Source: Balanoglossus misakiensis (taxonomy: Eukaryota > Animalia > Hemichordata). Taken from it: a stretch of 64,000 nt of DNA. Shown here piece after piece: positions 49,849 to 53,474 of this stretch (its first letter is position 1; every line of letters starts with the position of its first letter). A model generated the notes under the pieces. The model worked only from the letters and a program-made list of their open reading frames with translations, had not been told where the DNA came from and did no database searches. The position numbers were made by a program, and so were the translations under genes. Location: contig CM082577.2 of NCBI GenBank assembly GCA_040954595.2, positions 4,402,305-4,466,304 on the forward strand, in the 5' to 3' direction.

Positions 49849-52800
49849 ATGGCGACCAACAGCGACCCCGACACACAACTCGTCGAAAACTATAAACCTT
49901 TCTTCAAAGAAGACTTACTGAAGTAGGTCATTTTGCTTGTGGCACTCATGTCACATCTTACAGAGTTTTTAAGGTATATGCAGTATTGATACTGTCGTTG
50001 CTGACCGACAAACAACATTTGGTTCGTCCGGCAACTCTGCGGTCACCGAACTTTTCATCAGCGCAAAACTTTGTAACCTTTGACCCCACACAGCTGACCT
50101 TCGAGGAGCGTGGATTACCGGTATGATAGTAGTACCACACACTGGAAATAGTATGGGTTCTGTTTCGTACAACAGCTAAGACAATATTGACTGACTGCAC
50201 GCACATCTCTCTTGTCTATGGTCATACTGCATCTCATCTCAGTGACAATGTCACATTGCATGTTTTGGGTTTTGGGGACGTGGCTGAAATATTTGGGAGA
50301 AAAGTCTTGCATTATGACACAAGCTGAGTTCAAAGGGTTAAGTTAAAATGCAAAAACTCTCTGATTAATGTGTAAATAAGAAATTAGTGAAGCTCTTCAT
50401 TCAAAGTGATGGACATTCCACAGAATGGACACTTTTACAGGATTTGTTTGTTTCCAGGGACAAAGTGGCACTCATAACAGGTGGGGCAACTGGTATTGGT
50501 TTCACAATTGCAGAAGTTTTCATGAGGTGAGGAAAAAAAGCACACACAAAATTGAACTTTGGCATTAATCAAGAAAACATTTCAAAGTAGAGCACCAGAT
50601 GTCGCTTAATGTCATGTATTCATATCTGACTTAACAGACATGGCTGTGACACCATCATCGCCAGTCGTAAAATTGAAAAACTGCAAAAGGTAGGCATATA
50701 AGTTATAACATAATAACTTGATCGTTTGTTCTTAGAAAATTTTGAGGAAAGTTTTACTGGAACATTAAGCTGCTTTGTTTCCATGAATACTAACGATAGA
50801 ATCAAGTTCCTTCAGTGTCACATTTTCACATGTCTGTTTGTAATATGTTTTAGGCTGCCAAGGTCTTGGAAGCTGGCACTGGGAGAAAATGTCTGACAGT
50901 TGTCATGGATGTGAGAAAGGTGAGTAGAAAAAGAATTATTTGATTGGCAAGTCTTTCTGATCCTTTTGTTCAGCTTTCTGAAATGAAACTGCTCATTCAG
51001 TGTAGTAAAAAAAAGATATTGGTTTTCAACCATTATAGTTGCATTGGGATTATTTGAAACTTTTTGTTTGGTAAGAGATTGCATGCCAATCTGTTTATAT
51101 CATTCGCCTCATGAGGGCGCCTTTCAAAAGGCAAACTACATTAGGCATAATGACTGCATCCCCAGGCAAGATTTTTTAATGACTTCTTGGATTCTTAGTC
51201 CTGGAAAACCATAAAACTCCTTTGACCAGTGAGAAAAATCCATTTAGTTTATCAGCAGTGTTAAATTAAAAAAAATATTCACAAAGAATTCACACGGGGA
51301 GTGTATGTGTTTTAATAATAGCTATCGTAATCCTACTGTTCTGATTCCTGTTTTACATCACATGCAGCCCCAAGAAATAGTCAAAGGTGTGGAACAAGCA
51401 ATGAGTGAGTTTGGTAAAATTGACATCCTGGTCAACAGTAAGTATCATAACTGGTAGTATAATTTTTGTCTCTCGAGAATGAAATTCGTATAAAATATTA
51501 GTAAACGTCTTAATCAGGAAGAGAAGTGCATCAGATTAAATTAAATGGTCACCAACTACTTTTACGTTTCATATGTGTCATCTTTGTTTACTTGGTACAG
51601 ATTTGAAAGGTTTATTTTCTTGCCTTCTTTCTGTGACATTTCCAGATGCGGCTGGGAACTTCCTGTGTCCTGCCAGTAGTCTGTCTTTCAACGCTTTCAA
51701 AACAGTCCTGGAGATTGATACAATGGGCACGTTCAATGTCACCAAAGCGGTCTATGATGCAGTCATGAAGGTAAATGCATAAGTTTCTATTATGTCTCCC
51801 GGAGGGCTATGTAACCCCCCAAAATCACTATTTCATGTTTCATCGCTTTGTTTTTAAAATCAGAGTGGGAAAAGAAATCTCTGATTAAAAATAGGATGCA
51901 CATTGGTACCATTGAGGATGTTGATTAAAGAATAGGAAATAAGACAGCATTATTTTATTTTCTTATTCAGGACAAAGGTGGTGTAATCATCAATATTAGT
52001 GCAACATTGCATTACAAAGGAACAATACTGCAGACACACGCAGCATCTGCCAAAGCAGCTATTGGTGAGATCTCTTTGAATGTACTGATCACTCCTTTTG
52101 ACCCCTTATTTTCATTTCTGTATCTCTTTGTTTTTTTTAACTGGACCTGTTTTTTTTTTTACCTGTTTACAGATGCAATGACAAAGGTGTTAGCTGTGGA
52201 GTGGGGACCTCAGGGAATACGCGTCAATTGCATTGCCCCTGGCCCAATAGACAACACTGAAGGTGTTCGAAGATTGGGTGAGTGGGACCACATTGGTTAT
52301 ACACATGTTTAGCTAGCAAGTGCATAGTGCTGGCGTCCTGTGGCAGCCTAAGCAATTCTTTTGTTTACATACCGATTGCTATTGTTCATCGAGGGAGCCT
52401 AGATATGTAGAGCGCCCCCAAGCAAAGTTTATCACTCCCAGAGTTCGTGGTCAATTTGCCTATACCACAAGTGGCACTAAAATTCATTACATGTTAAAAT
52501 CATTACATTTACTCCCCTTCACATTGTGACTGGTGCATGTGTGTAAGTTTTCTATAGAATTTTAACATCCGCACATCATTCAATCTTTATGTGTGTTCAT
52601 AATTCCCCTTCCCTCCATTATTTCTCATCTATGCTGTATCCCTTTCATTTCATCCCATCCTAGGCGGAGATGATGATTATACCAAGGAAAGGTCAAAGAA
52701 TCTTCCGCTGGGCCGTATGGGCACCAGGAAAGAGATAGGGGACAGTGCATTGTACCTGGCTAGCGATGCGTCGTCCTACGTCACTGGGACTGTTCTTTTA

Positions 52801-52884
52801 GTGGACGGAGGAAGTTGGATGGTGGGCGCTAATTCGGTGTACGAGGCGGAAAAACGCATGGAAATGATGATGTCTAAACTCTAG
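49849..52884 (+). CDS. DECR2: Peroxisomal 2,4-dienoyl-CoA reductase (SDR), 9 coding exons, isoform using terminal exon A
   Basis: [59 protein letters not shown]..|..MDVRK|..[39 protein letters not shown]..|[52 protein letters not shown]|..[44 protein letters not shown]. Ends in PTS1 SKL. Confidence 0.95.
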
Positions 52885-53292
52885 TTGTGACGGTCAAGAA
52901 ATAATATGCAGAACATTCAGATTTATTTTAGTTTTATCAATCAATTTCCTGTATTTTTCCCAGTAGATATATTTATAAAATCATCAGCCATACCCATTCA
53001 TCATGTGAAAATCTTCATTCTCAAATGTTTAGACATGTAATGTATCAACAATCATATCCATGAGTAATTTTTCACAAGATAAAGTGACCCACATGTAGAA
53101 CTGGTAAATAAAACAGACAATTAAAGGAATGTATACGAAACCAAGAAATGATGCCAAGTGTTTCAAAAAGAGTGAGCAAACCCTGTCATATACACTGTAC
53201 TCACAACGCATCAGCAAGGATTGAAGAAAGAAGACCCATAGAAACATATCGACCGTTCCCAACAAATTCACATTATTGTTTTTGATCTGCAG

Positions 53293-53474
53293 CTGGACCC
53301 CTTGCTGATCAAGTGAGCGGTTTCATACCCTTACGCCGCATGGGCACTCGCGAAGACATGGCCAACACCGCCCTCTTTCTGGCGAGCGGTGCCAGCTCGT
53401 ACCTCACTGGAAGCGTTGTCGTCGCGGATGGCGGACAATGGCTGGTTGATGGGCGTGGCCAAAGTAAACTGTGA
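53293..53474 (+). CDS. DECR2: Alternative (duplicated) terminal coding exon B of DECR2
   Basis: Acceptor ttgtttttgatctgcag, phase 1 like exon A. Reads (A)[59 protein letters not shown] with no stops or frameshifts. Confidence 0.85.

What the first reader, a model, noticed from the sequence alone, without database searches (positions are those of the whole stretch)
52664..53474. DECR2 carries two intact, paralogous, mutually exclusive last exons, each ending in peroxisomal SKL
Seen: exon A (52664-52884) and exon B (53293-53474) each follow a pyrimidine-rich AG acceptor and are phase 1, matching the upstream donor (..RRL G|gtgag). They are clearly homologous ([38 protein letters not shown] vs [38 protein letters not shown]) but strongly diverged, stop-free, and both end SKL*. 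Known: in SDR enzymes the segment after PGPI..T contains the substrate-binding loop and oligomer contacts; SKL is the canonical PTS1. Inference: an old exon duplication kept by selection lets one gene make two peroxisomal reductases with the same Rossmann fold but different substrate-binding modules, switched by alternative splicing/polyadenylation. I know of no such arrangement for vertebrate DECR2.
Basis: partly seen in the sequence, partly recalled or inferred. Interest (0 to 1): 0.78.

Follow-up and report, generated by a model that had tools for sequence, protein, structure and literature searches.

The report
Swappable tail exon, peroxisomal fat enzyme
This acorn-worm gene for a peroxisomal fat-breakdown enzyme (DECR2) carries two old, intact copies of its last exon and likely uses either one; database gene models show the same kind of doubling in another acorn worm, a brittle star, two sea stars and a scallop, but whether the two enzyme forms prefer different fats is untested.

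Summary
Observation confirmed. The gene is DECR2 of an acorn worm close to Ptychodera flava (shared part 199/218 residues identical). Eight shared exons splice in frame to exon A (291-aa protein) or exon B (278 aa); both end in SKL. A versus B: dS about 1.9, dN about 0.33. P. flava RefSeq isoforms show three such tails on one core, one A-like and two B-like; a tree test rejects a duplication private to this species. Homologous tail swaps at the same junction also appear in Amphiura (3), Patiria, Acanthaster and Argopecten (2 each): 5 of 24 named invertebrate genera, 0 of 11 vertebrates with several isoforms. Tails group by lineage, which suggests repeated duplication. Models of relatives put the junction between the two substrate-loop helices; the B type is predicted to lack a C-terminal helix. 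Splicing was not checked with RNA here, and different substrate preference is untested. This is a new member of a known kind (duplicated terminal-exon substitution, like ACOX1a/b in effect), partly visible in annotations already. I found no paper on it for DECR2; the scan noted this layout in other genes, not DECR2.

The parts
49849..49922 (+). DECR2 coding exon 1 (from ATG), shared
50458..50526 (+). coding exon 2, shared; glycine-rich cofactor motif TGGxxGIG
50638..50689 (+). coding exon 3, shared
50854..50919 (+). coding exon 4, shared
51368..51437 (+). coding exon 5, shared
51646..51770 (+). coding exon 6, shared
51971..52064 (+). coding exon 7, shared
52173..52277 (+). coding exon 8, last shared exon; PGPI..T and the first predicted loop helix; phase-1 donor at 52278
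52664..52884 (+). alternative last exon A (coding part, 72 full codons + TAG): second loop helix, core helix and strand, 21-aa tip predicted helical by proxy, SKL
53107..53112 (+). AATAAA, candidate poly(A) signal after exon A (ATTAAA at 53120); weak evidence on its own
53293..53474 (+). alternative last exon B (coding part, 59 full codons + TGA): same elements, 10-aa tip without predicted helix, SKL
53721..53726 (+). AATAAA, candidate poly(A) signal after exon B (ATTAAA at 53879); weak evidence on its own

Best explanation
[quoted passage not shown] Shown: both exons, their phases, open frames, SKL ends, purifying selection, and matching tails in P. flava isoform models. Inferred: using exon A's acceptor and the poly(A) signal behind it gives the 291-aa form; skipping A and using B's acceptor gives the 278-aa form; as each exon holds a stop, a protein can carry only one. 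Both forms share the NADPH-binding fold and almost all invariant residues, so both would do the same chemistry. A keeps the common long tip; B has lost about 10 residues of it. Untested: the kinetic difference, tissue pattern and mixed oligomers. Odds: both exons used about 0.9; a real kinetic or substrate difference given that, about 0.55-0.6.
For: Intact frames and acceptors. pN/pS 0.39 between A and B. P. flava XP_070580453-459 (isoforms X1-X6, one 41.5-Mb contig) have an identical 187-aa core and three homologous tails, all SKL; window B is 75% and 70% identical to two of them, window A 61% to the third. In the tail tree window B groups with the P. flava B tails (100/98), and a clade of window A + window B is rejected (p-AU 0.0003). 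Same-junction swaps on identical cores in Amphiura, Patiria, Acanthaster, Argopecten. AlphaFold of the P. flava B1 form: helix 213-218 shared, helix 220-229 in the last exon, matches human DECR2 4fc6 at TM 0.92. The A-type Saccoglossus protein has an extra helix 276-289 that the B1 model lacks. A and B differ most in the loop segment (1/11 identical) and tip (0/10), less in the core segment (23/38). The loop between strand 6 and helix 7 folds into two helices beside the active site of SDRs (PMC10579966, passages). Precedent in the same pathway: ACOX1a/b differ in chain-length preference through one alternative exon (PMC11178532, passages).
Against: No RNA evidence for this species. The isoforms in relatives are computed RefSeq models whose read support I could not see. 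The loop segment is also very variable among ordinary single-tail orthologues (mean 61%, minimum 31% identity in 71 pairs at similar core divergence), so difference there need not mean different specificity. The core segment of each exon is a little less conserved against P. flava (79% A, 84% B) than in those control pairs (mean 91%, minimum 76%), which fits relaxed constraint as well as specialisation. Window A and P. flava A do not form a clade in the free tree (not rejected either, p-AU 0.15). The folds are monomer models of relatives, without ligands; no substrate contact was computed.
Confidence: 0.52

Rival explanations
1. Both exons are used, but the enzymes are nearly equivalent; the pair is kept because each exon brings its own 3' untranslated region and tail length, which split expression between tissues or stages or change import efficiency or stability.
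For: Each exon has its own candidate poly(A) signal. Nearly all invariant residues are shared. The loop segment drifts freely among single-tail orthologues. B's SKL sits only 10 residues behind the last core tryptophan, against 12-22 in 51 control proteins, which could alter receptor access (inference).
Against: B's short tip and loop sequence are kept in three exons of two species, and repeated retention of two or three protein-coding copies in several lineages is easier to explain by protein differences (inference).
Confidence: 0.33
2. The B form acts mainly as a partner subunit that changes assembly or activity of mixed oligomers, rather than as a separate enzyme.
For: The last exon encodes the final core helix, strand and tip, which form subunit contacts in many SDR tetramers (recalled, not tested); the B type is predicted to lack the C-terminal helix.
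Against: B keeps both invariant residues of the exon and its own SKL; nothing suggests loss of catalysis.
Confidence: 0.08
3. Exon B is an unused leftover in this species, lying in or behind the 3' untranslated region of the A transcript.
For: No RNA check was possible. P. flava has a third tail that this window lacks, so copies can be lost.
Against: 75% identity to the P. flava B1 tail without gaps, intact acceptor, frame and SKL; neutral decay rarely keeps these.
Confidence: 0.06

Closest known systems
RefSeq isoforms X1-X6 of Ptychodera flava DECR2-like (XP_070580453.1, -454.1, -456.1, -458.1, -459.1 and X4)
   Same: Same gene, same junction, A-like and B-like tails, all SKL.
   Different: P. 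flava has two B-type tails and an alternative N-terminus; the window has one B and no match to that N-terminus. These are annotations, not a study.
Tandem duplicated exon substitutions (PMC9741552; passages and section 17 read)
   Same: Homologous, mutually exclusive exons that swap one protein region; 77 of 236 human events swap C-termini; the same genes show unrelated events in distant lineages (tropomyosin 3' exons, ABCC9/mrp, KCNMA1).
   Different: DECR has 0 occurrences in that paper's main text and DECR2 0 in its one held supplement; its set is human.
ACOX1a/ACOX1b (PMC11178532, passages)
   Same: Peroxisomal beta-oxidation enzyme whose duplicated alternative exon changes chain-length preference (C10 versus C16/C24) and tissue pattern: the functional model for this case.
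   Different: Internal exon, conserved from fish to human, measured; here a terminal exon with PTS1, lineage-restricted, unmeasured.
Insect glutathione transferases with one shared first exon and alternative 3' exons (Drosophila GSTO2A/B, PMC4195677 passages; Anopheles GSTD1 splice forms, recalled)
   Same: Shared cofactor-binding front, alternative back ends from one gene.
   Different: There most of a domain is swapped; here about 60-70 residues of a single-domain SDR.
Human DECR2 (PDB 4fc6/4fc7)
   Same: 57% identity, TM 0.92 to the P. flava B1 model.
   Different: No homologous tail swap in 11 vertebrates checked; 7 of them instead swap only the last 9-11 residues, which removes the PTS1. 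Human isoforms themselves were not examined.

Membership tests
DECR2 (peroxisomal 2,4-dienoyl-CoA reductase, SDR) | Best-matching named relatives and solved structure are DECR2 | tested here: met
   4fc6 best at E 7e-101 and TM 0.92 for the 91%-identical P. flava proxy
DECR2 (peroxisomal 2,4-dienoyl-CoA reductase, SDR) | C-terminal PTS1 tripeptide | tested here: met
   SKL before the stop in both exons; import itself not tested
DECR2 (peroxisomal 2,4-dienoyl-CoA reductase, SDR) | NADPH-dependent reduction of 2,4-dienoyl-CoA | not testable with these tools
   needs assay
Tandem duplicated exon substitution (alternative last exons) | Two adjacent homologous exons of one gene, same phase, both intact | tested here: met
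Tandem duplicated exon substitution (alternative last exons) | Only one can be in a protein | tested here: met
   each exon ends in a stop codon
Tandem duplicated exon substitution (alternative last exons) | Both are spliced in transcripts | tested here: inconclusive
   no RNA run listed for this species; RefSeq isoform models of P. flava use all three tails
Tandem duplicated exon substitution (alternative last exons) | Purifying selection and conservation across species | tested here: met
Docking-site/selector RNA-pairing exon choice | Strong complementary pairing between the upstream intron and the region before the alternative exon | tested here: not met
   best duplex -19.0 kcal/mol, matched or beaten by 25 of 30 shuffles; conservation not testable without relatives' DNA
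ACOX1a/b-like specificity switch | Isoforms differ in substrate chain-length preference and tissue | not testable with these tools
   needs assays and RNA

The most novel reading that the evidence does not exclude
DECR2's last exon is a convergently duplicated specificity cassette: acorn worms, brittle stars, sea stars, scallops and perhaps snails each copied it independently and now tune one peroxisomal reductase to different polyunsaturated or unusual marine fatty acids by swapping half of the substrate loop and the C-terminal helix, while bony vertebrates use splicing at the same end of the protein to switch the peroxisomal signal on and off.
Probability: 0.27. Interest if true: 0.66.

Novelty: new member of a known kind. 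Interest (0 to 1): 0.42.

Why it matters
If the forms differ in substrate, this is a natural module-swap experiment on one SDR scaffold, repeated in four or five lineages: it would show which C-terminal residues set chain-length and double-bond preference in peroxisomal breakdown of unsaturated fat, and add DECR2 to the short list of genes where exon duplication recurs. If they do not differ, it is an ordinary example of a well-described gene layout.

Tried and rejected
No genome is held for the window and no RNA holder was listed, so no junction reads were laid; this is no evidence either way. Assembly or haplotype artefact: rejected, since A and B show dS about 1.9, no blastn match to each other and separate counterparts in P. 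flava. Second DECR2 gene supplying exon B: no duplicate upstream exons in the window. Third tail copy in the window: none. Duplication private to this species: rejected (p-AU 0.0003). One ancient second exon shared by acorn worms, Amphiura X3, Acanthaster X1, Patiria X2 and Argopecten X2: rejected for that choice of copies (p-AU 5e-5); B + Amphiura X3 borderline (0.036). B tails + sea-urchin tails (0.27) and B + sea-urchin + brittle-star tails (0.24) are NOT rejected; all hemichordate tails as one clade borderline (0.054); P. flava B1+B2 as a clade not rejected (0.36). Residual similarity of the two 3' regions: inconclusive (score reached by 10 of 300 shuffles and 7 of 516 other window stretches). 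RNA pairing element: not found. Poly(A) hexamers: AATAAA occurs 53 times on the + strand of the window, so their presence is weak evidence. The human DECR2 structure paper is not held, so substrate contacts are not taken from it. No complex prediction was run: such a pair would pass by likeness to solved tetramers.

Full report
Observation. A gene model built from the window has eight shared coding exons between 49849 and 52277, all with GT-AG introns, giving 218 codons plus one base without a stop; joined to exon A (52664-52884) it gives 291 aa, to exon B (53293-53474) 278 aa, both ending SKL. A and B align at 54% over 46 aa and there is no third copy in the window. Both acceptors look like the gene's other acceptors. 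An AATAAA follows each exon (53107, 53721), which is weak evidence alone.

Identity and organism. Exon B's best hit is Ptychodera flava DECR2-like isoform X3 (75% over the whole exon, E 5.6e-20), then Saccoglossus. The shared part is 199/218 identical to P. flava, 188/218 to Glandiceps and 176/218 to Saccoglossus. The window is therefore from an acorn worm near P. flava, not a vertebrate. The P. flava protein's best solved relative is human DECR2, 4fc6.

Selection. Over the 40 codons that align without gaps, A versus B has pS 0.69 and pN 0.27 (dS 1.87, dN 0.33; pN/pS bootstrap 0.23-0.60); 14 of 21 identical degenerate codons differ silently. This segment was picked for being alignable, which biases the ratio down, and it sums both branches. 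That B itself is constrained follows better from its gap-free 75% identity to P. flava. With substitutions only, a neutrally mutated B stayed stop-free with a PTS1-like end in 12%, 2.5% and 0.4% of 5000 runs at 20%, 35% and 50% change.

Conservation. P. flava isoforms X1-X6 share an identical 187-aa core and end in three homologous tails that part at the same junction: one A-like (X1, X4) and two B-like (X3/X6, X2/X5), all SKL. In a 49-row tree of last-exon sequences (71 columns, so weak in places) window B groups with both P. flava B tails (100/98); window A lies with the A-like tail, Saccoglossus, Glandiceps and, oddly, Trichoplax (95/69). A clade of window A + window B is rejected (p-AU 0.0003); window A + P. 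flava A is not (0.15). The duplication thus predates the split of the two species.

Recurrence. Of 24 named invertebrate genera seen (one search listed 120 of 621 hits; 23 clusters were opened), five have isoform models with identical cores and homologous alternative tails starting at this junction: Ptychodera (3), Amphiura (3), Patiria (2), Acanthaster (2), Argopecten (2). A Batillaria model holds two tails in tandem, as a gene predictor would produce from a duplicated exon. Branchiostoma records are ambiguous, as cores or N-termini differ too. Single records elsewhere do not show absence. Tails group by lineage: Amphiura 100/99, sea stars 98/98, molluscs 99/99, Batillaria pair 99/88. One shared second exon across these lineages is rejected for the copies chosen (p-AU 5e-5), but B tails with sea-urchin tails (0.27), or with sea-urchin and brittle-star tails (0.24), are not. 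Repeated duplication, four or five times, is the best reading; an older duplication with sorting within Ambulacraria, or homogenisation within lineages, stays open. Not all of these tails end in a textbook PTS1 (Amphiura SVL/SLL/SML, Argopecten SMM/SQL).

Vertebrates. In 11 vertebrate species with two or more listed isoforms, none had two versions of the loop-to-core segment; seven (sturgeon, bowfin, three teleosts, axolotl, a lizard) swap only the last 9-11 residues, between a PTS1-type end and a charged end without one.

Structure. The window's joined isoforms were not folded; proxies were used. The P. flava B1 form (pLDDT 90.6) has helix 213-218 in the shared part and helix 220-229, helix 238-249 and strand 260-263 in the last exon, then an unstructured end. 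The A-type Saccoglossus protein (pLDDT 91.6) adds helix 276-289 before its PTS1. In SDRs the region after strand 6 is the substrate-binding loop, two helices that close over the active site (PMC10579966, passages). The swap thus replaces the second loop helix, the last core helix and strand, and the tip. Of 29 residues invariant in an 81-sequence alignment, 27 are in the shared part and 2 in the last exon, both kept in A and B. A and B share 1/11 residues in the loop segment, 23/38 in the core segment, 0/10 in the tip; B's tip is 10 residues, against 12-22 in 51 control proteins. Against over-reading this: the loop is variable among ordinary orthologues as well (mean 61%, minimum 31% in 71 non-independent, mostly fish, pairs), and each exon's core segment is somewhat less conserved against P. 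flava (79%, 84%) than in those pairs (mean 91%, minimum 76%).

Mechanism. Shown: anatomy, selection, conservation. Inferred: choice between A's acceptor with its poly(A) site and skipping to B; exclusivity needs no special device as each exon has a stop, and no pairing element was found. Predicted: same chemistry, different loop and C-terminal helix, hence likely different substrate preference or kinetics, as measured for ACOX1a/b in the same pathway (PMC11178532, passages). The main rival is that the enzymes are near-equivalent and the exons serve regulation through separate 3' regions or import efficiency.

What is known. Duplicated-exon substitution is a described class; C-terminal swaps are 77 of 236 human events and independent recurrence in the same gene is documented (PMC9741552, passages and section 17). 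DECR2 is not named in that text or its one held supplement. Searches for DECR2 with alternative splicing (28 papers, 20 listed, titles and abstract starts seen), dienoyl-CoA reductase with exon duplication (0 papers), DECR2 with PTS1 and isoform terms (12 of 88 listed) and DECR2 with hemichordate or echinoderm terms (10 of 385 listed, none holding DECR2) showed no description; passages of the zebrafish peroxisome inventory mention only a PTS1-bearing Decr2 (PMC8919083). The library lacks most subscription papers, including the human structure paper. Earlier scan notes hold no DECR2 case but several other genes with this layout (unchecked).

Verdict. Real, old and conserved; a new member of a known kind, partly present in public annotation of relatives. 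The added value is the apparent repeated duplication of this one exon across marine invertebrates and a concrete, testable structural difference. Interest 0.42.

Noticed in passing
proteins P0250/P0251, P0266/P0267, P0264/P0271, P0280/P0283, P0246/P0411, P0333/P0394, P0289/P0416 (not in the window): Bony-vertebrate DECR2 has a conserved pair of tips: a PTS1-type end or a charged end without PTS1, in sturgeon, bowfin, teleosts, axolotl and a lizard; not seen in three sharks or wombat. Suggests a conserved non-peroxisomal DECR2 form; not found in the papers listed.
   Followed up: partly
protein P0397 (Ambystoma isoform X7): An isoform skips the whole loop-to-core exon and joins the shared part straight to the non-PTS1 tip, confirming the same exon junction in vertebrates.
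   Followed up: no
window 55245-56550, - strand: A convergent multi-exon gene ends about 1.8 kb behind exon B; its last exon reads like the C-terminus of an acyl-CoA synthetase / luciferase-like protein (recalled motif; Pfam gave no hit for the 45-aa piece) and ends SRV.
   Followed up: partly
window 54090-54230: Short degenerate tandem repeat (units like cagaagtccgttgct) between DECR2 and the next gene, seen by eye; may belong to a mobile element.
   Followed up: no
proteins P0001, P0216, P0219 (P. flava X1-X3): P. flava models also carry an alternative N-terminus that has no match in the window.
   Followed up: partly
proteins P0354-P0360 (Branchiostoma): Several near-identical DECR2 records with slightly different tails; recent tandem gene copies or a recent last-exon duplication.
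   Followed up: no
window 52885-53270 versus 53475-53950: The two 3' regions share a few colinear short repeats, perhaps a remnant of the duplication; borderline against controls.
   Followed up: partly
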